From assembly GCA_000091205.1 (NCBI GenBank), contig AP006495.2: DNA of 64,000 nucleotides. One strand, written 5' to 3'. This document shows positions 13,020-61,705 of the stretch, one piece after another. The notes beneath the pieces were generated by a model. The model searched no databases. It was given only the letters and a program-made list of their open reading frames with translations, and was not told the DNA's origin. Each line of letters begins with the position of its first letter. Position 1 is the stretch's first letter. The stretch is from Cyanidioschyzon merolae. Its lineage: Eukaryota. The position numbers and the translations under genes are program-made.

Positions 13020-14000
13020 AATATTAAGGTCTATTAGATCCCATTTGTAGAGGATGTGATGGGTGCCGCACCCCGCACAGGTCCAGCGGCCGCGTTTTCG
13101 TTGGATACGCTCGCGTGCGCTCGGCCACCGGGGAAGCAACGAAAGCGCGCTCTATGTTCCTTCATGTCAATGGTACTCCATATCCTGGTGCGTCTCATCA
13201 TATGCTTTTTTGCGGTTTATAGAAGATTTGTTCGAAATGCATTCATTTGAAGAAACAGAGAGAATCCAAGGAAAATTATAGACTGAAATTCGGGGATCCA
13301 GAAGGGCCCTCATCACCGCGTTATACCAGCGAACGAAAAATCCCCTAGTCGCCGACCATCGAGCGAAGAGGAACAAGTGACGAAGAAGCGGAAGCAAAAG
13401 GGAGATAGTCGCCAAAACGGTGATCTCTCGACCGGACGATGACCAGACTCTAGAGGCACATAGGGAACGAGAACCAGGAATCCATGCAAAGGTGACTTCA
13501 ACAGGAGCGAAGAAACGCAAAGAGTTCGTGAGCCGCGACGGAAACGCTGCTATCAATAGCAGACGATTTGCGGCGCTGAACGCGAGAGCCGACGAGCTGA
13601 TGCGATCCAAAATTGCGAGGCAGCGTCTCAGGATCCATGTGTGCCTGGATAACACTGACCCCGATACCAGGATGCGGGTGGAAACACACTGGGAGGCGTC
13701 TGCGCGCGGGTACTCATTTTGCCTCCATTGTCATAGAACGTTTATCGTTTTCCTGACCATATATGGGCAATCACGAATGGGCAAACCGCTGTTCTCGAAG
13801 AAGCGACAGGTGAGCAAGACCGCTGCATTAGCCAGTACGGCTATTTGCACGGGTGATCGCCTACAAATCGCCAAACATACCGGAGCGCTTCGCATCGCAG
13901 GCAACGTAAAAGCAATGTGTGGCTTCTGTTTGCGACATTCTTCTATTCTGCTCTATGACGACGTCGATTTCCATCACGAATGAGCTGTCAAGGAGTACGT
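13020..14000 (+). mobile_element. Internally deleted Fanzor-family element (copy A): 5' segment, then Fanzor 3' end, then partial R1
   Basis: The 5' segment 13020-13420 aligns to 17260-17665 (copy B) and to the minus strand of 49200-49500 upstream of the full copy, for example tgcttttttgcggtttatagaagatttgttcgaaatgc versus gttttttcgcactttataagagaggcgttcaaagtgc. The R1 part is at about 13760-13990. Confidence 0.6.
13420..13760 (+). pseudogene. Fanzor/TnpB-like C-terminal fragment carrying the RuvC-III motif (VSRDGNAAINSRR); no in-frame stop
   Basis: Translation DDDQTLEAHRER...KEFVSRDGNAAINSRRFAALNARADEL aligns to copy B, copy C and the full copy. The 3' block gggtactcattttgcctccattgtcatagaacgtttatcgttttcctgaccatata is conserved. 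Confidence 0.6.
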
Positions 14001-15916
14001 GACAAAAACTGCTCTCGAGCTGCTCCTGGTGAGACCCTTTTTTTCCGATTCAAGCCAGTCGAAGGCGACATCTCTGTTGCCAAACACCGTTTTTGAAGCT
14101 CACGGATCCATCGACGAGTCGTCCGCATCCATGACACTGTCATCCGACGAATTGCTCTTCGGAAAGTCATTCTCTTCCTGAACCATTCCTGAGCTGGTGT
14201 CTCTCAGCTATGCTTGTTTGCGGGAGGGAGCGAAAATGCGCGCCTCGGTCCGTGAACATCGCCCTTGGGAGCCGCTAAAGAGATTGATGCTCAGGAATCG
14301 TGGAGATATATGTAGGAGAAACAGAGTTCTGGAACAAGTTCCACTCAGTGCGTCGAAGGAGATGCTTTAAACGCTCCAGACAGCACATGAGACTCTGTTC
14401 GATTCGCTTGCAGTTTCGGTTGTATGGAGGCAAGAGTCAGGCATTCGCCAACTTGTGCGATAACTTGCAAAAAAGCAAATGGTCGATATCTCGAGTTGTC
14501 ATGCTGTAGTCAATGGCACTGGACGTGCAGTAACGCGCGAGCGCTGCACTCCGATTCCTTTGACGACAGCGTACATGGAGTGCAGGAATCGGCGCTTTCA
14601 GATTTCCTTCCATGAGTTCAGGACGACACCATTGCATCACGGGCGCGGGTGCATGTTGAATCAGGTACAGATGGAGAGCGTGAAACGGATCCGAATGCAC
14701 GAGATGGTGCTCACTAAGCTGAGCGGACGCCAGCTGACGGGGCGATCCCAGGTCCAAGGCTTGCTGTGAGGTGACGCTACCAGCAAACCTGCACACAAGC
14801 ACGTTCTACACCGAGACCCAAAACGCCTCGACCATCATCCGGGGATATCTTTTGCGTCCGAAGCATCCAGCGGCCATATGTCGAGCAAGCCTTCGAGGGT
14901 ATCGTTTGGTGATCAGTGTGGGCATTTTGCTGAAACGCGGAAGGCATGCGATGAAGAAAATCAGTAACCAGGAGAGAGGGGAATGGATTCTTTCGGGAGC
15001 GAGGCACTGGTATTGGACGGTCAGCGATCGAGCACGATTGATCACTATATACATCCGCAACGATTTTCCTTGGCAACTAGTGAACATTAGCAATGTTCAA
15101 TTACTCGATATCACCGTGCATATGCTCGACGCGAACGGCCGTACGATCGCCCCAGACTGCACTGTTACCGTACGACGTTCGTGGTAGCGTCTCCCGCGCT
15201 TTCGCAAGCGATCAGATTTCGCGAGACACCTACCGGGAAGCCTGATCCAGCCTCTACATCATGCCTGGATTCTGGACTGGGGATGGAGGAACGAGGACGC
15301 ATCACCATGTGCGGGGCGCTCCATACTCAACAAACTGGAAGCTTTTGCGCATCCGTCGGAATCTGGTCCGATGCACTGATCCAGTACACACTAAAATAAA
15401 GCAGTGACGATGGAGGGCGGTGCCTTTGACACCGTAAAGCTCGCTTGACAGCGACCGCATGGACAAGAGGGTGAAGTGCGCGGTTCCGCGGCGCGCTCGC
15501 CACGGGAAATGGCGCCCCAAGTGAAAAAGCGGTCAGAACACGTGCTCATACAAGGTCGAATGCGTTGGTTGCTCCCTCGGTTACCGACCAAAACCGCTTA
15601 CCACGATGGCACTTTGCATATCGATGATGTTTATCCAACGTTAGTGACAATGACGCAGTGCAGCGAATCATCTAGAGAATATATCTCTGGTTCCAGTGCA
15701 GACACGCCATCATGAATGCATTCAGTGATGCCCGTCACAATGCGCTTCGCTGGGAACACGCTATCCCCATTCGATGAAGCGCGGTACGGCAGGCCACGTA
15801 GACCTTGAAAACCCTTGCATTTGCTTGGCGCTGCAACACGAATCCGTTCAGGCATCGGAAAAGTGAACCGCTGCAATTCGGCATAGCATGCAGACCTTGA
15901 ACGCTGTCACGAGACG

Positions 15917-17026: not shown

Positions 17027-17589
17027 TGTACGTTTTCGCTTCAACTAGGCAAAGAAGCGCTTTTTCTTGTCCCCAGCGCCACCTGCTCTGCGCTCGGGAG
17101 CTTCTGGAGACTATGAATGAAAAGCACGCACAGCACGCTCCTCGGCTCGCAGCGGTTTACCTGAATATTTGGCGTAGCTGTAGTGTGAGCACGTTTTACA
17201 CGCAAAAAAACCTCAGGAAAAGCGAACGTGATAAGTTGTCACGTTACATGGAAATCCGTGTTTCCGTTGATAGACTGCTTTGGGTAGCTTTATGTCATGG
17301 GGATCTGTTTGTGATGCGGCGACGACGACGACGACGACGCGCGCGGCATCTCGTACGGATACACGCTTGCAGTATTTCATCTCAATTGGGTTCCATCATC
17401 ACGCACGTGTCGTCAAATGCTATTTCGCGGTTTATTGCAGAGACATTCAAAGCGCGTTCCGTGGAAGGAATAAAACATCCCAGGGGAATGCACGGACCAA
17501 GTCGGGGACCCCGAAGGATCGTCCTCGCCAGGTGCCAGAAAAAACGAAAAATATCCTCTTGTCATCGAGTTTAGAGCGAAGAAGAGCAA

Positions 17590-17982
17590 GTGACAAAGAA
17601 GAAAAAGATGATGATTCGTGTTGGTAGGCGATTCAACGTGTACGCACGACGGAACGATGACGAGACTATGGTGGCACAGAGGGAACGAGTGCTAGGAATC
17701 CTTACAAGGATGACTTCAAGCATCCTCAATGCACGCAGTGAGCTCGTGAACCGCGACTTGAACACTGCTATCAATACCAGACGATTTTCGGTGCTGAACA
17801 CGAAACCCCAAGAGCTGACGCGAGCCAACTTCGTGGAGCAGCCTCTGATACTCAAAATGTGTAAGGAGAAGCTGGAGCCGATAGCAGGCGGCCGGTCAAA
17901 AAATGGTTGGGTGACGTCTGCGGGTGGGTATTCATATACCCTACATGATCGTGCGAAAACTTTTGTTTCAGTGACCACATAG
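17590..17982 (+). CDS. In-frame internally deleted Fanzor/TnpB-like ORF (130 aa): about 35 N-terminal residues fused to the C-terminal RuvC-III segment
   Basis: MMIRVGRRFNV resembles MVAKAFVLRQF, the N-terminus of the 49166 ORF upstream of the full copy. ERVLGIL...VNRDLNTAINTRRFSVLNTKPQELTRANFVEQPL aligns to aa about 570-630 of the full copy. The stop TAG is at 17980-17982. Confidence 0.5.
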   Translation: MTKKKKMMIRVGRRFNVYARRNDDETMVAQRERVLGILTRMTSSILNARSELVNRDLNTAINTRRFSVLNTKPQELTRANFVEQPLILKMCKEKLEPIAGGRSKNGWVTSAGGYSYTLHDRAKTFVSVTT

Positions 17983-18028
17983 TGCATGTGAATAAATCTG
18001 TTCTGATGTATAGCTCTTCGGGATCCGC

Positions 18029-18952
18029 TTGTCGCGCTTGCTCGAGCGAGATTTCGCGCTTGCGAACGACACCAATGCTACCTGCCTGGCCGTGCTCGGT
18101 TTCATGAGCTCAACGAAAGACCAGAACAGCGTGGGTGAGTTAGAAGACTTGGCCTTATGGGCAGTGGAAGCTCTTACGGTGGCGCTTGTCCCTCCTGACG
18201 ACACGCTATGCTGTCTCGATTCGCGAGCGTTCGGGCTCCTCGGTACGCCTGGAGAAACTGGTTTTCAACACGCGAGCATCATCGAGCAGTTCCGAGACGA
18301 CCTCTCCCGAAATAATAGACCGCACTTGGTCACGAGTGATGCCGGCGTTGAAAACCTCGCTGAACGCAGAGTCGATGGCTGTGTCACTTTCGGCGCCTTA
18401 GACAGCGCTTTCGCCGACGAGGCCTCCTGCGAGTCCGTGCTACGAACAGTCGCCCGCCTGCTGTGCTCAGGTGGAAAGTTCTTTGGTCTCTGTGTGGACA
18501 GCGCAAGCCTATGGACACCACTGCGGAAAGCTTACGAGGCACGACAGACTGGGCGGGCTGCTCCTGCACCCAGCGTCGATATTCGGCTACCGTACCGGGC
18601 AAGCGACGCGAGCTTCTGTATCGCCATGGATCCGGATGCGAATGCACTCTTTCGCTCCGCATACGGACACGTGTTTACGCTGGGCGTGGGCACAAGAACA
18701 AAAGCCTCGTCTCGAAAGTGCTATCTTGTGAACTTTGGAGAACTGATTCGAGTCGCATCACGCGTAGGTCTCGAGTACCGCGAGGCCTTGAACTTGAAGG
18801 ATTTTTGGGAAGAATTTCATCGCCCATTACAGTATTGTGAGGAGATGCGTAGCTTTTACCGACGCTTCCAAGGTCAAAAATTTCGACCAAGTCCAGCGGC
18901 GCTCGAGGGCGCTGCGTATTTCTCCGTATTTGTCTTTGAAGCAGTGTCCTGA
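18029..18952 (+). CDS. Element-borne class I methyltransferase-like protein resembling the C-terminal two-thirds of mRNA cap guanine-N7 methyltransferase (RNMT/Pox_MCEL family); the SAM-binding motif I was not recognised
   Basis: 307-aa intact ORF. The block [39 protein letters not shown] resembles the RNMT block [71 protein letters not shown] resembles [32 protein letters not shown], and [11 protein letters not shown] resembles SIYLVFAFEK. Degenerate paralogous copies of this ORF follow every Fanzor 3' fragment (copies A, C and E). Confidence 0.45.
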   Translation: [307 protein letters not shown]

Positions 18953-24849: not shown

Positions 24850-26300
24850 CGCCGAAGCATCCAGCACACTGTGACACACCCGGGCACATTTCGTGGTCCT
24901 TCCGCAGGTCCTTCACCTTTGGGGAAGGTCCTCACCTAAACGCATAAAATAGTGCATTCATTTTCAGGAAATAAAAAATCGATGGTATGAGTTTGGATGC
25001 ACACTTCAGAACAAAGAGATGGAGAAGAGCCAGCGGAGCGCTTCGGTGATAGAAAAGCACCGAGAGCTGACACAGAACCAAATGACACAGAGTGAACGAG
25101 TTCTAGGAATCCTTGCATTGGTGGGTTCACGCAGCGACGATAAACGCATGGAGTTCGTGATACGAGACCTCAACGCTGCCATCAATATCCGACGATATGC
25201 AGAGCTGAAGACGAAACCCGCAGAGCTGTAACGATCCAACTTTATGAGGCGACCTATTAGGATCGAAGTTTGCAACGAGAAACTGAAACCGACAACAAGC
25301 AGCTGATCGAAAACGACTGGGTGGCGTCTGCACGTGGATACGCATCTACCCTACATAATCGTGCGACAATTTTTGTTCCACTGACCACATACCATGTCTG
25401 AATAACTTTTTGGCGTCCTCCTGTGACGACTCGTCGGCAAGCTCACGCAGAAATTTCACTGAACTTGTCAAGTCAAATACTCGATTCCATTTGAAAGACA
25501 ATGCCTTCTCACTTGGTTGCTATCGATGGAACCACGGTCGACTTCAGTTCGACAAATCCCGGGAGATACGCACGCAGTGGCTGTCTTCTCTTGTATTTGC
25601 GTGGAAAAGGTCTGGGGCGCGGACTCTAGTCACAGCGGTGATCTCTTCGGGTGCAGCGTGCGTCACGACTTCGCATGGGCGGAGCGTAGACGAATCGAAT
25701 TTTCTCGACTTGATCTCCAGCATGGATTACCATACCGGCGCTCGTTTCATCATGGACAAGCTTGCGTTCCACAAATCCTCTTTCGAATGGGACAGCGTGT
25801 GCTTGGTCGTCCTACGGATATTGAGTTCGCCACGGGCATCGCCCTAAACAAGTCCATGATCGTTGGGTCCGGCAACTGGCTGGCGCGGAAACCTTCCAGG
25901 ACGTCGCGGGGAGCCTTCTGGATCCGTCACGGGCCTGTGCCGGGCGATGCAGCGAGCGGTCACGCACCGCAGGGCGCCAATCTGAGGACGACAAATGGAG
26001 AATACACTCGAATGCCTGACTACCGACGAGTGGCACTGCTACGAAAGGCGCATCCGGGCTCTATACAAACAAGCGAAAAACGGCTGGCGAGGCGTCGATC
26101 GCAGCATTCGCCTGTGCATGGAAAACATGAAAAACATTCGAAAACAGCGTGATCAGGAGTTTAGCGCTGCCACGAACATCTTGCGACTGCTGAAAAAAGA
26201 GCTGGAAGCACAGGAGAGACTGGGGCATTTAAAACCTGAAAAAAGATACCCTCAAAGGGAACAGTTGGAAAAAGTCTGCAAAGGCTGGCATTGATAAAAC
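24850..26300 (+). mobile_element. Internally deleted Fanzor-family element (copy C): 5' segment, then frameshifted Fanzor 3' fragment, then degenerate R1/methyltransferase-like region
   Basis: 24985-25391 aligns at nucleotide and protein level to aa about 536-650 of the full copy. 25393-25810 aligns to 1140-1560 and 18000-18300. Confidence 0.55.
24985..25391 (+). pseudogene. Fanzor/TnpB-like C-terminal fragment (RuvC-III: IRDLNAAINIRR), frameshifted
   Basis: GCTLQNKEMEKSQRSASVIEKHRELTQNQMTQSERVLGIL...MEFVIRDLNAAINIRRYAELKTKPAEL aligns to the full copy's [40 protein letters not shown]...[16 protein letters not shown]. The downstream frame is shifted (RSNFMRRPIRIEVCNEKLKP). Confidence 0.6.
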
Positions 26301-38855: not shown

Positions 38856-41131
38856 GCGCATAAGCGGTAGGTCGATGCCGGGCACATCCGGCACGCTGCA
38901 TCGCGGGTTGCATGCCCTTCGCATACCGCTCCAGGCTTGATCAGGGGCGATAACAGACGCTCCAGCGATGTATCCTTTGCGTGCTGCCTGATACGGAAAA
39001 CGACATCTTCAAGCAGCGCATGACGCTCAGACATGTTCTTGATTGAAGCTTTGACGAGAAGCGAAAACCTTTGGAACGATCCGCTTTCAATCCAAGGCCG
39101 TAAGGATATCCGATCTCGTACGATCCATACAGGCAAGGATCTGAATGGAGCGCATTTTCCGTTCGTTTATTTTCAACGGATCGCTCGAGGCGCTCCCGGG
39201 TCACGCAATGCGATGGTGTGTGCTGGCGCTGCTGCTGGGCGTTCGGCGTTGCTGTGCGTTTACGAGTTATCTGCGCCCCCACGGTGTGCATGTGATGAAC
39301 GCCCGAGACGAATGAGGCCGCCCACGCTGCTGCCGGGCTGCGTCAGCAAGCATCCCCAGTTTGGTACGATCAAGTGCCGGGACATCCATGCAGTCCTGCA
39401 TGTTACGCGTGCGGCCGTCTTATCGCCTGAGCTGGCGCACGTAAGCGCACTCGCAACGCAAGTAGCTCTGGGTAGCGTTCTGAGGCCTAGACGCAGCGTG
39501 CTCGAGATGTTGCACATCCGAATGCCGTTCGGGAGATGCGATACCGGCGCTGTGGACGGAACCCCGGTCCGCTATGGAGCATGCGGCAGCGACGGACATC
39601 GATACCTGCACTGGATAAAATATCCAGTATGTTCTCTGCATGCTTACCTGACGTGCATTGACTTCATCTCAGATACTTGTCTGCGCTGTGCATTGTCTGC
39701 TGTAAGCTACGACCTGGGTTTGTTCAACGCAGCGCAGGCATGCACGAACATACATGATGGTATTTGCATGTCGATTTTGCAAGGTTGCTTGACCTGCCAG
39801 CTCTGAACTCAACCGTAGCGCACTCCACGCTGCGAGATGCGTTTATGACCGCACCCTGTCCTTTGATCTGCCAAACGTTCCCAGACACGAAAAGCAACCC
39901 AGGCATGCTTCATCTCTCATGACTGTACGTCGATAGATGATGCACATACAATACTCGTATACACGGTGTCCGCTCAGGTGGAAGACGCTGCGGGTCTCTG
40001 CTCGTGGCGTTGCCGCAGCGGTCGGAGAGTGTCGATCGCGCGTTCCTGCATCCCCGCCGGCGCTACTTGATACACGATGTACACTGACAGAATGCGCTGA
40101 TATCAAGAGCGCAATCGGGGGTGCCTGTTCAGTGTGTAAAGGTTGTATAAAAAACGCGATGTGCGCTGTCGACTGGAGAGAACGTTGCGTGCGATTGTAA
40201 CTACAGCGCAGCATTCTCGACATTCACTACGTTCAAAAAAAGACAGAAAAAAAGCACTTGCTTTTTGCAACGGTCCCGAAAGAACACAAACGAACCAGCA
40301 ACCAGCGACTCGATACCAATTTCGTTCCAGCTTCACGGTGAACATTGAACGGGGGCAAACGTCTCCGTATTTTCGAACGTTGATCCGCATGATGGAAGGT
40401 CGCACGACCCCGACGTGTCCGGCGGGCTCGTGCCTCACGCCTCCCTCAGTTACCGGGTGATGTGGCGACACCCGAGCGACTCATCTGCAACGATGTTTTT
40501 GTTTTTAGATGAGAAAGCGGTAGGCTGCATGCTAGGCGTTGCCCTGGTTGCAGTACGCTCCTGGCAGATCGCTTCGCGCTACCGCAAGCAGTGCGTCTCT
40601 CTCCGCAGCTTGCTGGCTCCCAGTATCATAAAGAGTCCCGATTCCGTATTGAATAAAAGACACTTCGAGCCAACGTCCTCAGTCGTATGCCAATCCCGTT
40701 CTATGCTCGTGCTGCACCCGCACCAGCTGTATAGGGGTTATTCAGGGGACAGCAAGGCAGGTACTCGCTGCGCGATAGAACGCACGAAACGACCAGTACA
40801 ACCTATATCACATATAGGTTATGGAACTTGAGCGTATGGCACAGCATGATGGACAATTCCATGAACCCTACTATCCATCCCGTGTCTGGGTTCCGTGGTC
40901 AATGGAAACATTTCGTCAAACATGAGAGAAAAAGCCGGTAGGCCTCAGCGTGCCACCAAGTCCCGTTTTTGAAATCCCTCATCGGGCGATCGCGCCAAAT
41001 CGATCGTACGTTGCGCGTTGGTGCGCTCTTGCGCTGTGCTGCGGCACGCTGCAGTACGCACGCTCTGGTGAACTGCTCTGTCGTGCTCGATATCGCAACG
41101 ATTGTGTTGACGGCACAACAAAGGTCTCTGA

Positions 41132-46864: not shown

Positions 46865-46962
46865 GGCGCACACCGCTGAACGCCGTTCTAAAGTAGAACG
46901 TCGTCGGCGGTGTACAGTAGTAGCGACCGGTGCGCCTTGGACAACAAGTCGCCTACTGACGT

Positions 46963-48913
46963 GCAGACGCTTCCTAGGCTTTTTCGACCGGCCGCCTACT
47001 ACTGCTTCCAATTGTGTCTCATATAGTAAAACCTTAAGAGGTTGTCCAACAAAATTCTCTCGTGTCATCTCTGGAGGTCTGTTCTCCAACACCGCACATC
47101 TCCTTATATTGATGGCGGTAATAAAATCTCGGTTCACAAAATCCATCCGTTTCGTGCCGTTGGGAGTTGTACTTACTAATGCAAGCAGTCCACGAACTTT
47201 CGCTCTCCTTTCCATTTGCTCTTCCGTCAGCTGTCTATACTTTGCTATATCCTCAGGGCTCCTCTGGCACTTTTCCATCTCGACTCTCTGAAGTGTTAAC
47301 CCCTGTTCATGGTGTGTATACGATGTTCGAAACTCATCTACAGGTATCGTAACGAAACGCCTTGCACACTCCTTGTACATTCTTGTCGTTGGAGCTGGTG
47401 TAGTGCCTTTCTTGGGCACCCATCGTCCTGCTCCGTCCGCTACGACGAGCCTCTGACTTTCCTCCTCCTTCAGGGCGCTCAACTCATTCAAAAAATTCGC
47501 GAACGCCCGCTGCCTCCCACCGTATAGATTCATTCGCAGACGAGCCCACCGGGGCTTGGTATACTCCTCCCATAGCGCATCCCAGTGCGCCATGCGAACT
47601 TCCATGAATTTCCGGACAGCTTCAAAGTCCGCTCCTCGGCTCGTCACCTTACTCAAAGCTTCCAGGTGCTCTTTCATTCCTGGATTCCAAGTCTCGATTT
47701 TCTTCCTCGCATTCATGATTCCCGATTCTCGATAGTATATTGCTCTCGAGAACTTCAAAAGACGCATGTCTTTCTGACGCATGCCGCCGTCAGTGCCATC
47801 TTCCAAACGCTTGGGTACTGCGATGGTGATGATATTTGTGTTTCCGAGGTCCGCGCCAACGACAAAGTCGTTATCATGCACTTTCTGCGCGGCAGGATCC
47901 CCCTCCTTCTCATCTTTATGCATCGCCGCGCCAACGACAAAGTCGTTAGCTTGCACCTCCTGCACCACAGGATCCGCTTCCTTCCCATCTTCATCCTTCA
48001 TCACGTCAACGACAAGGTCGTTATCCTGCACCTCCTGCATCACAGCATCCGCCTCCTTCTTTTCTTCATGCTTCGTCACGGGCGCAGCCGAGGGCGGAAC
48101 TGGACGATCTTTCTTCAACCGCCGACAGAGTACACACGTGGCTACTCCATCGGTTTCGATCAACCCAGTGAATACCTTCTTCGTGCTCACTTTGAGACGT
48201 TTGAAATCGAAGCTGCTCATCCAGTACGTCTCCCGGTTTCCGCCGGTGAAGTCCTCCCTGCTTACATCGAACTCCGGACAGATATCCCTCATGATGCCGT
48301 AAAGGACGCCGGAGTCGATAGTCACAAAATGTGACTTGATCTTGCACATTGGAACCACGTTGAATCGCTTCCGCATTAGGACAGCCTTCCGTCTCTCCCA
48401 CTCTTCCTTTGTCTCTTCACTCAGCTTCATCTCCGCTTTGCGTTCGAGCTCTCGGTCCAGAAACACAAAATAGCGCAGGACGAGGCGATCGTATCTTTCC
48501 CTATCTTTTTTCAGCTCTGATATCTTGTCTGTTGGATTCGCCAGGCCCAGTATCGCACGATGCTCTTTAATAACCGCACGGATTACGGAATCCTCATTCA
48601 TGCTCTCGTTTGAAACCTTCTTCTCGACAAATTTGATCTCATCTTCATGCTTGCGATCTTTCATGATGCCATTGATAATCGCCCATTTTCCATTACGAGA
48701 GATGCCCGGGTATAGCGCAAACACTGCGCATATCATGAAACGTTCCAGGTTCATTGTAAAATGGTTCTTCACATTCGTGAGGTACTTCTTCGCCCCGAAG
48801 GTGTAAATATCCCAGTCAACCTTGTTTAGAGTACCCTCGAATCTGTAAAAGGGATGTTTTTCGTGGAGGGCGTGCACTCGCTCATCACTCGTCGAACATT
48901 TTTCCTGTGCCAT
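46963..48913 (-). CDS. Fanzor1-like (eukaryotic TnpB/OMEGA-type) RuvC nuclease, main ORF (aa about 1-650 of the 1287-aa read-through ORF)
   Basis: Has RuvC-I ([19 protein letters not shown], compare GIDLG) and a TnpB-like segment [16 protein letters not shown] (compare VDPAYTSQTCSVCG, Cys ligands lost). RuvC-III is [18 protein letters not shown] (compare DRDVNAAINI). At the canonical RuvC-II position the sequence reads LVVADG (E replaced by A). Confidence 0.7.
47857..48055 (-). repeat. Three in-frame tandem repeats of about 69 bp inside the Fanzor ORF, immediately N-terminal to RuvC-I
   Basis: [53 protein letters not shown] and [18 protein letters not shown]. Also visible as repeats on the plus strand at 47781-48302. 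Confidence 0.7.
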
Positions 48914-49166
48914 GCATGAAGTGGCGGTTGAATGTCTTGTTGAAAAATTCTCCCGGAACCTCGACTGTTTTGATGCCCATCACGTTGTCGTACATCTCCC
49001 ACGCCAAATGCATTATTCCTGAAGAAGCCTTTGTTATACTCATGGAGTAGCACGCGCCACGTTTTCTGATGGCCTCCCATGACTTTTGCTTGGAGGGATC
49101 CTTGAATTGGCGTAGAACAAATGCTTTCGCCACCATTTCTTCGTACTGTTGTCTTTCAAGTTGCAT
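48885..49166 (-). CDS. Probable N-terminal segment (about 90 aa) of the Fanzor protein, separated from the main ORF by a 1-nt frame shift in an A5 run
   Basis: The ORF MQLERQQYEEMVAKAFVLRQF... ends [11 protein letters not shown] overlapping the main ATG (ggaaaaatg). Removing one A gives a continuous ...[14 protein letters not shown]... Its N-terminus is conserved in the mini-ORF of copy B. Confidence 0.45.
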   Translation of the reverse strand: MQLERQQYEEMVAKAFVLRQFKDPSKQKSWEAIRKRGACYSMSITKASSGIMHLAWEMYDNVMGIKTVEVPGEFFNKTFNRHFMHGTGKMFDE

Positions 49167-50149
49167 TTAGCGTCTGATTTCCAGTCTAAGGTCCCCCGTC
49201 TTTTCATGATTCTCTTGGCTTGGCGCTGTTTTTCTGGAAGCCGGCGACACTGGGCCTCCAGCATCGTCGACTTGCTTTGACATAACTTTTTTATTTTGTT
49301 CTGAAAAAGAACGCACTTTGAACGCCTCTCTTATAAAGTGCGAAAAAACACTCGAATACACTCACTTGAGCGTTGAAACCCCATTGAAATGAAAGACTGT
49401 CATATTGTGCGACTTCAGCACAGATCCAACCAGCACGTGAGACCCACACGTCAACGTATGGTCAGCATAGCGTTTCCATTCAACGCCGTGATACGCATTG
49501 TGTCGTGCATGCCAGATACGGAGCTGCGCGTATCGACCGCGCCATATAGAACAAACAACAGAAACTCACGACTACATACCAGTAAGATAACGATTTTTAC
49601 CCCCCCTCTGCAATGGACGTTAAAAGGGGGAGATGTTTCTATCATGTCGAATGTTTACCTCCTCGGCGGAAGGCCCCGCGAGCCCGACGAGTTTACCAGG
49701 CTCGTGCTTCATGCTCCCCCAGTGGCAGTTGCTATAATGAGACCCGAGCAACTCGTCCGCAATGTAATTTGTTCTTGGACTTGGATCGAGTAGCCTGCGT
49801 CTGGGCGTCGCGTTTGTCGTACTGGATTCCTCATATATCGCTTCACGCTTTTTGCAGGCAATTCCTTTGTCTCCACAAATTGCAGTCTCCCAGCATGATA
49901 ATGAATCCCGAACTCATGTCATTCGTAGCGTTCCTCGATCCGTCGCCCCCCCGTCGTATGGGAAATCCGTTCTTTCTCCATGATGCATCTGCACCAACGG
50001 TATAGCTGTTATTGCTGGTGCTCACGGCAGATAGTCGGCACACGATACAACGCACGAAACGACCAGTATATCCGAGAGGATATATAAGTAATGGAACTTG
50101 AAAGTAGGTTGCAGCAGCATTATGGACGCTTTCCCGAAAACTAATCCCC

Positions 50150-50278
50150 ATCCATCCATGCATCTATCTATCTACCTATCTATCTGTCTATCCATGCATG
50201 CATCTACCTATCTATCTGTCTATCCATGCATGCATCTATCTATCTATCTATCTATCTATCTGTCTATCTGTCCATCTG
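50150..50278. repeat. Compound (TCTA)n-based microsatellite with about 3 higher-order units of 32-36 bp (ccatgcatgcatctacctatctatctgtctat)
   Basis: Read directly at 50150-50278. A GC-only run (gccgccgccaccgccgcctccgccgccggcg) follows at about 50400-50440. Confidence 0.85.
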
Positions 50279-50539
50279 GAATCCATGGTCAATGTAAACG
50301 TCTTGGAATTGAAAAAAACAACACCAGCGGCGTCGTCGCTGCACGAATTCGCTGCCGTGACGCCGTCCAGCTGGCGACCTTTGTTTGCCGATCTTCTGCG
50401 GCCGCCGCCACCGCCGCCTCCGCCGCCGGCGACGACGAAGTGACGCGCCGCGGACCCGCAGCCGCCCGCGAGCCTCGTCGCCCGCACATTGCCGTGTCGT
50501 TTCGGCAAGTAGTGCGATATTCTTATTGTGCAGTAACGG

Positions 50540-60735: not shown

Positions 60736-61705
60736 ACCAAACCGGTACTAGCGACTCTAAGCGTTGCAGCGGGTCGCAGGCCGGGTGCCGTCGTTCACTC
60801 AAAAAACGAAACAACCCGAGTTGCCTCGCCTGCAGAAAGCGTCCAACGCAGTCCGTGGCGAGTTTCTGCTCCCCGTTAGCGCGAGAAGACTGCGCGGAGC
60901 ACGCCCTGCGGCATACAGCGCCTCGTGGCGTCGTCGATGCCGCGCCAAACACACACGCATGCGCCGGCGCGTCTGTGATGATCCTGCAGCGCCAGTTTCG
61001 ATTCTCGTGTGCTGGCATCCGATTCTTGCTGTTTTTCTGGAATGAAACAGCGTCGACGTTGCGCATGGATGCCAGATGGCTGAATGCGTATTGAAATAAA
61101 TGAAACCGCTCATTATTATTCACGTTACTTCCGAGTTCCATGACCAGTTCTCGGATGTAACTGTCGTTATATACTTTTTATCGTGTGCCGAGTTCGTGCT
61201 TGGAACACCTGCCGTAGCGCCTAAACCGCTGGTGCCGATGCATCATAACGTGTGACCTGTTTTGGCACGCAAATGAGAGCGTCAGCTCGAGATGTCCTTC
61301 ATCCGACACATGGGAACAGCGACAGCATGCTGGGGAACGAAGCAGCGAGCTCATTGGGGTATTGTGAGATCGATGGATCGAGTCCGAGAGCTGCGCACGT
61401 CTCGCTGCTGCTGTTGGTAACCGTGAGAGAGGTCACGAGTGCGCTGGTGCGGGAACCCTGGGTGTGTATGTTTCGCTCTTTACACGGATACCTCTGTGCA
61501 TGAAACCGGAACAAGGCCCAAGGGTGCGTTAGAGCTATCGATCATCACTGGGAAGTTCGCTACAATGCGCTCTCGATGCACATATCGGAATGAAATGGAA
61601 CTGGTTGACCAAACTAGGTCAGGTATGCACACGAAGGTCTGGGCGTGTGCCCGTGATGATCAAGACCAGGTTTAGCGTGCTTTTCGGCTCTCTTGACTCC
61701 GGATT

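What the first reader, a model, noticed from the sequence alone, without database searches (positions are those of the whole stretch)
17900..18030. Nucleotide-level conserved block at the Fanzor ORF 3' end, a candidate omega-RNA scaffold
The last roughly 45 nt of the nuclease ORF plus the stop are conserved in A (13700-13756), B (17935-17982) and C (25340-25391). The B version is ccctacatgatcgtgcgaaaacttttgtttcagtgaccacatag, and C differs as ...taatcgtgcgacaatttttgttccactgaccacata(cc). Conservation continues about 25 nt downstream (catgtgaataaatctg versus ccatgtctgaataactt).

In TnpB and Fanzor systems the guide (omega) RNA is encoded overlapping the 3' end of the nuclease gene and the element end. 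Conservation beyond codon constraints in decayed copies is what such an RNA would leave.
Basis: inference. Interest (0 to 1): 0.6.

Follow-up and report, generated by a model that had tools for sequence, protein, structure and literature searches.

The report
Fossil right end of Fanzor transposon
The conserved block is the decayed right-hand end of dead copies of a known red-algal Fanzor (TnpB-like) transposon; it may be a fossil guide-RNA scaffold, but only a younger copy 29 kb away gives good evidence for one.

Summary
The block is real, but it is mainly common descent. A, B and C are three dead copies, full of stops and frameshifts, of an old subfamily of the Cyanidioschyzon Fanzor1 transposon. 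That family (CMe-1A) was described by Bao & Jurka in 2013.

- **Conservation.** B and C are 85% identical in 17935-17982, against 72% upstream (p about 0.03, window chosen after the fact). Copy A is less conserved there than upstream (56-60% against about 71%).
- **Coding.** The block is coding in the ancestral frame (...RLHVDTHLPYIIVRQFLFH*). The ancestral stop is TGA at 17972-17974.
- **Structure in the old subfamily.** Two short hairpins recur in seven old copies. RNAalifold finds no consensus structure, covariation is weak, and there is no strand bias.
- **Structure in the young subfamily.** The window also holds a near full-length CMe-1A copy (50311-46870, minus strand). Its 3' 115 nt, aligned with seven paralogs, fold into three stems that span the stop codon. 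The fold is sense-strand specific, shows compensatory changes, and ends where homology between copies ends. This matches known Fanzor1 omega RNAs.

The omega-RNA reading is therefore plausible for the family and unproven for this block, which would in any case be a fossil. This is a new member of a known kind, of modest interest.

The parts
17376..17995 (+). Copy B: decayed C-terminal third of an old-type Fanzor1 gene plus its right end
   Evidence: tblastn and blastn to copies A, C and D and to metagenomic homologs. It contains stops and frameshifts.
17913..17921 (+). Anchor GACGTCTGC (consensus GGCGTCTGCAC). This is the last stretch shared with the CMe-1A 3' end; it forms the 5' arm of SL1 in CMe-1A
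   Evidence: The CMe-1A consensus 3' end aligns to C and A only through this anchor, in the homologous stretches 25307-25335 and 13674-13706. Alignments.
17926..17941 (+). Hairpin HP1 in B: GGGTAT-tcat-ATACCC
   Evidence: Centroid fold. A hairpin recurs at this place in the old copies: Stouffer z -2.6 / -2.7. In C the register differs (25334-25349).
17953..17972 (+). Hairpin HP2 in B: GC..AAAC-tttt-GTTT..GU
   Evidence: It recurs in A (13735-13751), C (25361-25381), L010, L014 and L017 with different sequences: Stouffer z -3.0 / -3.4. This is the strongest of 46 windows scanned.
17972..17974 (+). Ancestral stop codon TGA of copy B. The TAG at 17980-17982 is the stop of the frameshifted reading
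   Evidence: Frame analysis. The TGA is kept in 5 of 7 old copies.
17985..17995 (+). catgtgaataa: last stretch shared by B and C only, AATAAA-like. Similarity between copies ends at 17995
   Evidence: Other old copies diverge right after CACATA.
24983..25405 (+). Copy C: old-type relic. One frame with two in-frame stops up to TGA 25382-25384. HP1 at 25334-25349, HP2 at 25361-25381
13161..13770 (+). Copy A: old-type relic and the most decayed. HP2 at 13735-13751, TGA at 13754-13756
14405..14766 (+). Fragment E: piece of the RuvC region of a further decayed copy
   Evidence: tblastn to D and to P0001.
46870..50311 (-). Copy D: near full-length CMe-1A-type Fanzor1 element. The long ORF 48913-46954 carries the GADLG, VDEFRTS and [10 protein letters not shown] motifs
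   Evidence: 78-79% identical to the published CMe-1A consensus at both ends. 72-90% amino-acid identity to 62 homologs. Foldseek top 7 hits are Fanzor1 structures. The right boundary comes from the identity profile.
46867..46981 (-). 3' module of copy D, a candidate omega-RNA scaffold. SL1 at 46980-46939 ends at the position of the family's stop codon (46939-46937, CAA in D). SL2 at 46936-46922. Conserved linker ACTACTGTAC at 46921-46912. Terminal hairpin SL3 at 46911-46872
   Evidence: RNAalifold and pair counts on 8 paralogs. z -3.2 for D and down to -4.7 for paralogs. Consensus energy -23.3 sense against -8.3 kcal/mol antisense. 38 G-U against 11 A-C cells.

Best explanation
**What the block is (shown).** It is the right-hand end of three dead copies (A, B, C) of an old subfamily of the Fanzor1 transposon of a Cyanidioschyzon-like red alga, related to CMe-1A. 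It comprises the last ~20 codons of the nuclease in the ancestral frame, the ancestral TGA stop, and about 20 nt of 3' sequence. The copies resemble each other because they descend from related master elements.

**How it probably worked (inferred).** In the active ancestors this end most likely also encoded the scaffold of the omega (guide) RNA. The scaffold would be transcribed in sense through the 3' end of the gene, fold into short stem-loops bound by the nuclease, and run on into flanking DNA that served as the guide.

The inference rests mainly on the younger CMe-1A lineage. There, in copy D of this window and in its paralogs, the equivalent 115 nt form a conserved, sense-specific three-stem module. 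The module spans the stop codon and ends exactly at the element boundary.

In A, B and C the nuclease genes are dead, so the block is at most a fossil with no present function.
For: **Fanzor1 identity.**
- D matches the CMe-1 protein and the CMe-1A consensus of Bao & Jurka 2013 (PMC3627910).
- The RuvC motifs are present.
- The Foldseek top 7 hits are SpuFz, PpFz and GtFz (E 3e-8 to 6e-4).
- A, B and C are 41-52% identical at protein level to this family over the RuvC-III region.

**Position.** Homology among old-type copies ends within about 10-25 nt of the stop.

**Old-type hairpins.** In a scan of 46 windows over 300 nt, only the HP1 and HP2 windows stand out on the sense strand (Stouffer -2.7 and -3.4). 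At HP2 six copies form hairpins from different sequences. Pairing is 71% against 34-52% when partners are slid.

**CMe-1A module.**
- 34 pairs, 86.7% of cells paired against 82.5% shuffled (0/500) and 40-51% slid.
- 9 pairs changed on both sides (reached by 7/500 shuffles), 4 of them in the 6-pair core helix of the non-coding terminal hairpin SL3.
- z-scores of -3.2 to -4.7 in four copies.
- Consensus energy -23.3 sense against -8.3 kcal/mol antisense.
- The first 30 nt after the stop (to 46908) are as conserved as coding sequence (0.75-0.81). Identity is 0.56 in the covarying terminal hairpin and 0.27 beyond 46870.

**Literature.** Fz1 omega RNAs are 75-150 nt, consist of SL1 plus one or more stem-loops followed by the guide, and may overlap the stop codon (PMC11423790; PMC10432273).
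Against: **For the block itself.**
- RNAalifold finds no consensus structure.
- The measures that count compensatory pairs are not above shuffles (139/500 and 193/500).
- There is no strand bias (11 G-U against 9 A-C).
- Folding energies of the 90-nt region are ordinary.
- Hairpin registers differ between copies.
- A is less conserved in the block than upstream.
- The block is coding, and the B-C differences are mostly conservative amino-acid changes. Protein constraint plus descent could explain it.
- The CMe-1A covariance model does not recognise the old-type tails. Homology of the two 3' ends beyond the anchor is therefore unproven.
- B and C share about 13-16 nt immediately after the stop, which does not fit a variable guide starting there.

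**For the CMe-1A module.**
- Only 8 related sequences were available.
- The structure was derived from the same alignment it was tested on.
- SL1 overlaps coding sequence.
- Compensatory changes would equally fit a single-stranded-DNA hairpin used in transposition.

No expression data were available.
Confidence: 0.5

Rival explanations
1. Nothing but descent and coding. The block is the C-terminal tail of the nuclease (...HLPYIIVRQFLFH*) and its stop codon. The similarity of B and C reflects a more recent common master or protein-level constraint. The small hairpins are by-products of an A-rich stretch followed by a T-rich stretch of codons (K/Q/R, then F/L).
For: - The block is open and colinear with the upstream frame in C.
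- B-C differences are conservative at protein level (L/I, I/M, Q/K, F/L, H/Q; reading).
- A is not specially conserved.
- There is no alifold consensus and no strand bias.
- Energy z-scores are ordinary.
Against: - Two hairpin windows stand out from 46 scanned in seven copies, and nothing comparable occurs in the upstream 250 nt of coding sequence.
- The peptide is not conserved across the wider set of old copies, while hairpins at HP2 persist with different sequences.
- The sister lineage has a clearly structured non-coding module at the same end.
Confidence: 0.27
2. DNA-level transposon end. The conserved, hairpin-forming end is the cis-acting right end recognised, perhaps as single-stranded DNA, by the unknown transposase that moves CMe-1 elements. 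This would resemble the subterminal hairpins of IS200/IS605 or Helitron ends, and would not be an RNA.
For: - CMe-1A has no terminal inverted repeats and no defined target-site duplications (PMC3627910).
- It ends in a long imperfect hairpin with compensatory changes.
- The short non-autonomous relative (the 5' ~630 bp, TE-N2_CMe) has its own subterminal hairpin near its 3' end, with apparent compensatory change.
Against: - The CMe-1A structure is strongly sense-specific and rich in G-U pairs (38 against 11; -23.3 against -8.3 kcal/mol). That favours RNA, although one DNA strand could behave similarly.
- TE-N2-type elements spread (about 70 copies) without the CMe-1A 3' end, so that end is not a shared transposition signal.
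- The two roles are not exclusive. In TnpB systems the omega RNA overlaps the right end.
Confidence: 0.15
3. The ~20 nt after the stop that B and C share (catgt(ct)gaataa) are the remains of the gene's 3' UTR with a polyadenylation-type signal (AATAAA or TGTAA-like), not part of a guide-RNA scaffold. This covers only the downstream part and is compatible with the other explanations.
For: B has AATAAA at 17991-17996, C has AATAAC, and L014 has TGTAAA at a similar distance from the stop.
Against: The motif is not kept in A, L010, L017 or L018. I did not test which poly(A) signals this alga uses.
Confidence: 0.2
4. The block is a short spliceosomal intron. In B it reads g|GTGGGT...ttttgtttCAG|tgaccacaTAG, and splicing would keep the frame.
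For: Only the GT...AG appearance and the pyrimidine run in copy B.
Against: - The boundaries are not kept. C has ...ttccAC and A has ...tttcCT at the acceptor site.
- In C the unspliced ancestral frame runs straight through to the TGA.
- The published CMe-1 protein is listed as single-exon (734 (1)).
- The genome is intron-poor, with long uninterrupted ORFs.
Confidence: 0.02

Closest known systems
CMe-1A, the Fanzor1 element of Cyanidioschyzon merolae (Bao & Jurka 2013, Mob DNA 4:12)
   Same: - Copy D matches the published 3169-bp consensus at 78-79% at both ends, and matches the CMe-1 protein.
- It has the same size (about 3.3 kb), no terminal inverted repeats, and a 5' ~630 bp that also occurs as a separate short element.
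- A, B and C share the RuvC-III region and the GGCGTCTGCAC anchor with it.
   Different: - A, B and C are only 41-52% identical to it at protein level.
- Their 3' ends diverge from the consensus right after the anchor. They have a longer C-terminal tail, no SL2 or SL3, and end about 10-25 nt after the stop.
- They represent an older subfamily that the paper does not describe.
- The paper predates omega RNAs and says nothing about RNA at the 3' end.
- My alignment puts the right boundary about 10 nt beyond the published consensus end.
Omega RNAs of characterised Fanzor1 nucleases (SpuFz1, PpFz1, GtFz1; Saito et al. 2023; Xu et al. 2024)
   Same: - They are encoded at the 3' end of the nuclease gene up to the transposon right end.
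- They are 75-150 nt, with SL1 plus one to three further stem-loops, then a guide taken from the flank. Some overlap the stop codon.
- The CMe-1A 3' module (115 nt, three stems, spanning the stop, followed by variable flanks) fits this plan.
   Different: - There is no sequence similarity and no Rfam family.
- No RNA or protein-binding data exist for the red-algal family.
- The protein profile finds no solved Fanzor by sequence; similarity appears only at fold level, from a low-confidence model.
- For the old-type block the structure is not established.
TnpB omega RNA / right end of IS200/IS605 elements
   Same: A nuclease of the same superfamily. The guide RNA overlaps the 3' end of the gene and the right end of the element, which carries a subterminal hairpin.
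   Different: This is a eukaryotic element with no TnpA-type transposase in it, a much larger protein with a long N-terminal region, and no Pfam TnpB domain hit.

Membership tests
Fanzor1 (eukaryotic TnpB-like RuvC nuclease) | Ordered RuvC motifs D ... E-x-[TS][TS] ... RD (Bao & Jurka motif) | tested here: met
   Copy D has [15 protein letters not shown] and [10 protein letters not shown]. A, B and C keep only the last part: RDGNAAIN, RDLNTAIN, RDLNAAIN, plus EFR remnants.
Fanzor1 (eukaryotic TnpB-like RuvC nuclease) | C4 zinc finger between the E and RD motifs | tested here: inconclusive
   The family has HHELGC...EKC, not a CxxC...CxxC pattern. D has L in place of the first C. Pfam Cas12f1-like_TNB gives only E 0.23 in P0001.
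Fanzor1 (eukaryotic TnpB-like RuvC nuclease) | Fold similar to solved Fanzor1 structures | tested here: met
   The Foldseek pdb top 7 hits are all Fanzor1 (SpuFz 9cez/8gkh E 3e-8 / 1.5e-7; PpFz; GtFz), followed by Cas12m2. However, the model is low-confidence (pLDDT 53.5) and TM scores are about 0.3.
Fanzor1 (eukaryotic TnpB-like RuvC nuclease) | Sequence match to a described Fanzor1 family | tested here: met
   The CMe-1 protein and CMe-1A consensus from the supplement of PMC3627910 match D and the 67 homologs. A profile search of PDB sequences found nothing.
Omega (guide) RNA of a TnpB/Fanzor element | Encoded at the 3' end of the nuclease gene and reaching the right end of the element | tested here: met
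   The block lies in the last ~90 nt of the old-type copies. The CMe-1A module ends where identity between copies falls to background.
Omega (guide) RNA of a TnpB/Fanzor element | Conserved secondary structure supported by covariation | tested here: inconclusive
   Block: alifold 0.0 kcal/mol. 71% of cells paired against 66% shuffled (13/500). Double changes not above shuffles. Two recurrent hairpins, Stouffer -2.7 and -3.4. CMe-1A module: supported, but with only 8 sequences.
Omega (guide) RNA of a TnpB/Fanzor element | Variable guide segment immediately 3' of the scaffold | tested here: inconclusive
   Flanks are unrelated beyond 17995 / 25405, and beyond CACATA in other old copies. But B and C share 13-16 nt after the stop. 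For CMe-1A the flanks beyond 46870 are unrelated.
Omega (guide) RNA of a TnpB/Fanzor element | Stable transcript that binds the nuclease and directs cleavage next to a TAM | not testable with these tools
   No expression or biochemical data. The left end is fuzzy and I could not define a TAM.
Known RNA families (Rfam 15) | Match to a curated covariance model | tested here: not met
   No hit at gathering score in the window, and none at E <= 1 in 17600-18100.
Spliceosomal intron | Conserved GT...AG boundaries, with the reading frame restored by splicing | tested here: not met
   The AG is present only in B. C has AC and A has CT. The unspliced frame is continuous in C.

The most novel reading that the evidence does not exclude
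The block is the remains of a compact omega-RNA scaffold (about 70-90 nt, two short stem-loops). It would lie almost wholly inside the nuclease reading frame and belong to an undescribed older Fanzor1 subfamily of Cyanidioschyzon. Its architecture would differ from the 115-nt three-stem module of CMe-1A. If so, one genome would record a remodelling of the guide-RNA scaffold by gain and loss of hairpins around a shared 5' anchor.
Probability: 0.3. Interest if true: 0.45.

Novelty: new member of a known kind. Interest (0 to 1): 0.3.

Why it matters
Fanzors are the eukaryotic RNA-guided nucleases, and their natural role is still unclear. Cyanidioschyzon has a tiny, intron-poor genome with about 150 copies of one Fanzor1 family (PMC3627910), and from my own knowledge it is genetically tractable. 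A defined omega RNA for that family would make it a convenient organism for asking what Fanzors do in vivo.

The useful lead from this window is not the block in the dead copies. It is the well-structured 115-nt 3' module of the near-intact CMe-1A copy at 46867-46981. The block adds only that an older subfamily had a differently built right end.

Tried and rejected
- **Pfam scans of the ORF pieces of A, B, C and of D.** No hit. The precomputed DUF8286 label is uninformative.
- **Metagenome scan with the block as pattern.** Seven hits, all the same loci as B and C in near-identical strains (99% including flanks).
- **Viral-contig scans.** No relatives. One 16-mer hit was a chance match.
- **PDB profile search by sequence.** Nothing.
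- **CMe-1A covariance model R1 against old-type tails.** No hit. nhmmer with the old-type tail profile found no further copies in 320 kb of fetched loci.
- **Intron reading of the block.** Rejected because the boundaries are not conserved.
- **A long inverted repeat in B (17929-17951 / 17973-17995).** It folds better on the minus strand (z -2.5) but is not kept in C, so I dropped it.
- **My first hand-drawn terminal hairpin (CGCCG/CGGCG against CTGCC/GGCAG).** It was in the wrong register. The computed structure uses CGTCGTTC/GAACGGCG plus an outer stem.
- **Defining the left end and a TAM.** The copies blur over about 50 nt, so I abandoned this.
- **Homology between the old-type tail and the CMe-1A tail beyond the anchor.** My hand alignments suggest hairpins inserted and deleted, but no tool supports this.
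Full report
**1. The observation**

They are part of longer homologies. B 17672-17995 matches C 25083-25405 at 74% (E 3e-50), and B 17406-17946 matches A 13191-13728 at 68%. The similarity is therefore common descent, not chance.

In a three-way alignment, B and C match at 41/48 positions (85%) in 17935-17982. Upstream they match at 188/262 (72%). The one-sided Fisher test gives p = 0.03, on a window chosen after the fact. Copy A behaves the other way: 56-60% identity in the block, with seven gap columns, against about 71% upstream.

After the stop, B and C share catgt(ct)gaataa. Similarity ends at 17995 / 25405, and the flanks beyond are unrelated.

**2. What the copies are**

The window is eukaryotic and intron-poor, with GC about 55%. 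It carries a P-type ATPase, a glutamate dehydrogenase, a carboxyltransferase and an F-box kinase as long uninterrupted ORFs.

Copy D lies on the minus strand and has a ~650-codon open frame (48913-46954) with the motifs [15 protein letters not shown] and [10 protein letters not shown]. A further fragment, E, lies at 14405-14766.

D has 67 homologs in metagenomes, 62 of them at 52-90% identity. Bao & Jurka (2013, PMC3627910) described about 150 copies of a ~3-kb Fanzor1 element, CMe-1A, in Cyanidioschyzon merolae. It has no terminal inverted repeats, and its 5' 635 bp also exist as a separate short element. Their supplementary consensus and CMe-1 protein match D: 78-79% nucleotide identity at both ends, with the same protein motifs.

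A low-confidence AlphaFold model of D (pLDDT 53.5) still retrieves only solved Fanzor1 structures as its seven significant Foldseek hits. These are SpuFz at E 3e-8, then PpFz and GtFz, with Cas12m2 next. A sequence profile finds no PDB entry and Pfam gives nothing.

The 'Fanzor' label is therefore right. The organism is probably Cyanidioschyzon or a close relative. That is an inference from the element and from the genome style.

A, B and C are only 41-52% identical to this family over the RuvC-III region. They are riddled with stops and frameshifts. They belong to an older subfamily. A second protein search found further dead members elsewhere, at loci L010, L014, L017, L018, L020 and L022.

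**3. Reading frame of the block**

In C, one frame runs from RDLNAAINI to a TGA at 25382-25384, interrupted only by two point-mutation stops. It reads ...GWRLHVDTHLPYIIVRQFLFH*.

B carries an extra base near 17905. Its equivalent reading (RLRVGIHIPYMIVRKLLFQ*) ends at TGA 17972-17974. The TGA is kept in five of seven old copies.

The block is thus the C-terminal coding tail plus the stop. The younger family ends earlier (...GRRLHVSWRRFV*).

**4. More copies**

A metagenome scan with the block as pattern returned seven loci. All are the B and C loci themselves in 99%-identical strains, flanks included. They add no independent evidence.

The independent old-type tails show that similarity between copies ends around TGACCACATA. 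Only B and C share the next 13-16 nt.

**5. Structure of the block**

Folding the ~90-nt region of each copy gives ordinary energies: z = +1.6 for B, 0.05 for C and 0.18 for A.

Two local hairpins do recur:
- HP1 (B 17926-17941, GGGTAT-tcat-ATACCC).
- HP2 (B 17953-17972; A AGAACG/CGTTTT; C GUGcGACAA/UUGUUcCAC; L010, L014 and L017 with other sequences).

In a scan of 46 windows of 28 nt over 300 aligned nt of seven copies, only these two windows stand out on the sense strand. Their Stouffer z values are -2.7 and -3.4, and no other window falls below -1.4.

The registers shift between copies. RNAalifold finds no consensus structure at all (0.0 kcal/mol). On the plain MAFFT alignment, 71% of cells pair, against 66% in shuffles (13/500) and 34-52% when partners are slid. 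The measures that count compensatory pairs are not above shuffles (139/500 and 193/500). G-U and A-C cells are balanced (11 against 9), so there is no strand signal.

This amounts to weak evidence for two small hairpins. It is not evidence for an RNA.

**6. The younger lineage**

I aligned the last ~115 nt of D (46981-46867) with seven paralogs: L001, L002, L017, L024, L025, L026 and L027.

RNAalifold gives three modules:
- SL1, which ends at the stop codon.
- SL2 (GGCG...CGCC).
- A conserved single-stranded ACTACTGTAC linker.
- A long terminal hairpin, SL3.

The pair counts are as follows:
- 86.7% of 270 cells pair, against 82.5% in shuffles (0/500) and 40-51% when slid.
- Nine pairs change on both sides (reached by 7/500 shuffles). 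Four of them lie in the 6-pair core helix of the non-coding terminal hairpin SL3.

Other measures agree:
- Individual copies fold well beyond shuffles: z = -3.2 for D, -4.7 for L026, -3.8 for L024 and -3.8 for L001.
- The consensus energy is -23.3 kcal/mol on the sense strand and -8.3 on the antisense strand.
- There are 38 G-U cells against 11 A-C cells.
- Mean pairwise identity is 0.78-0.83 in coding sequence and 0.75-0.81 in the first 30 nt after the stop. It is 0.56 in the covarying terminal hairpin and 0.27 beyond 46870.

Caveats apply. There are only eight related sequences, the structure was derived from the same alignment, and SL1 overlaps codons.

The plan matches characterised Fz1 omega RNAs. 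Those are 75-150 nt, have SL1 plus one to three stem-loops followed by the guide, and sometimes overlap the stop codon (PMC11423790; PMC10432273).

**7. Link between the two kinds of end**

Both start from the shared GGCGTCTGCAC anchor. Beyond it neither blastn nor the covariance model R1 connects them. My hand alignments suggest hairpins inserted and deleted around a common frame, but that is only an impression.

**8. Rival explanations**

- **Coding plus descent alone.** This explains most of the block and cannot be excluded.
- **A DNA-level transposon end.** This is possible. The element lacks inverted repeats, ends in a hairpin, and its short relative has its own subterminal hairpin. Against it, the CMe-1A structure is sense-specific, and the short relative spreads without this end.
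- **A poly(A)-type signal.** The AATAAA-like motif after the stop in B and C may be the remains of one.
- **An intron.** This is rejected: only B has the AG.
- **A known RNA family.** Rfam has no match.

**9. Verdict**

The block is the fossil right end of dead Fanzor1 copies. That it once overlapped an omega-RNA scaffold is plausible by position and by analogy with the better-supported CMe-1A module in the same window. The block itself does not show it, and it has no present function because the nucleases are dead.

The family has been known since 2013. A candidate omega RNA for it would be a new member of a known kind. Interest is modest.

Noticed in passing
The family's stop codon is mutated (TAG to CAA at 46939-46937). 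The ORF therefore runs in frame into the neighbouring propionyl-CoA-carboxylase-beta-like gene (ATG about 46866), giving a mechanical 1287-codon ORF. The N-terminal ~100 codons are in another frame (49217-48906).
   Followed up: yes
window 50162-50277: An (ATCT)n microsatellite with a 32-nt higher-order unit sits inside the 5' end of that element. Consensus positions 7-38 lie beyond it, at 50305-50274.
   Followed up: partly
window 47854-48080: Three tandem 75-nt repeats inside the Fanzor ORF encode acidic 25-residue repeats (KHE.KKEADP..QEVQDND). The copy number varies among homologs (P0001, P0008).
   Followed up: no
window 40290-40918 (minus) and 61042-61309 (plus): Solo copies of the 5' ~630 bp of CMe-1A, matching the TE-N2_CMe element of Bao & Jurka. 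Their 3' end carries its own subterminal hairpin (consensus TTTCCCCC...GGGGGAAA; CCTCTT...AAGAGG in L025).
   Followed up: partly
window 14405-14766: A further decayed fragment of the Fanzor RuvC region lies between copies A and B. That makes five Fanzor-derived pieces in 64 kb.
   Followed up: partly
L020 6335-6532 and L022 614-873: In two metagenomic old-type copies the tail is cut just after HP1 by an inverted TE-N2-like sequence. This suggests nested insertion at or near the right end.
   Followed up: no
window 17929-17951 with 17973-17995: Copy B alone has a long imperfect inverted repeat that folds better on the minus strand (z -2.5). It is not kept in copy C.
   Followed up: partly
L003-L009 against window 9166-30250: Metagenome contigs from several JGI samples are about 99% identical to this window over tens of kb. 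The same species is therefore abundant in those samples, and its population variation could be mined.
   Followed up: no
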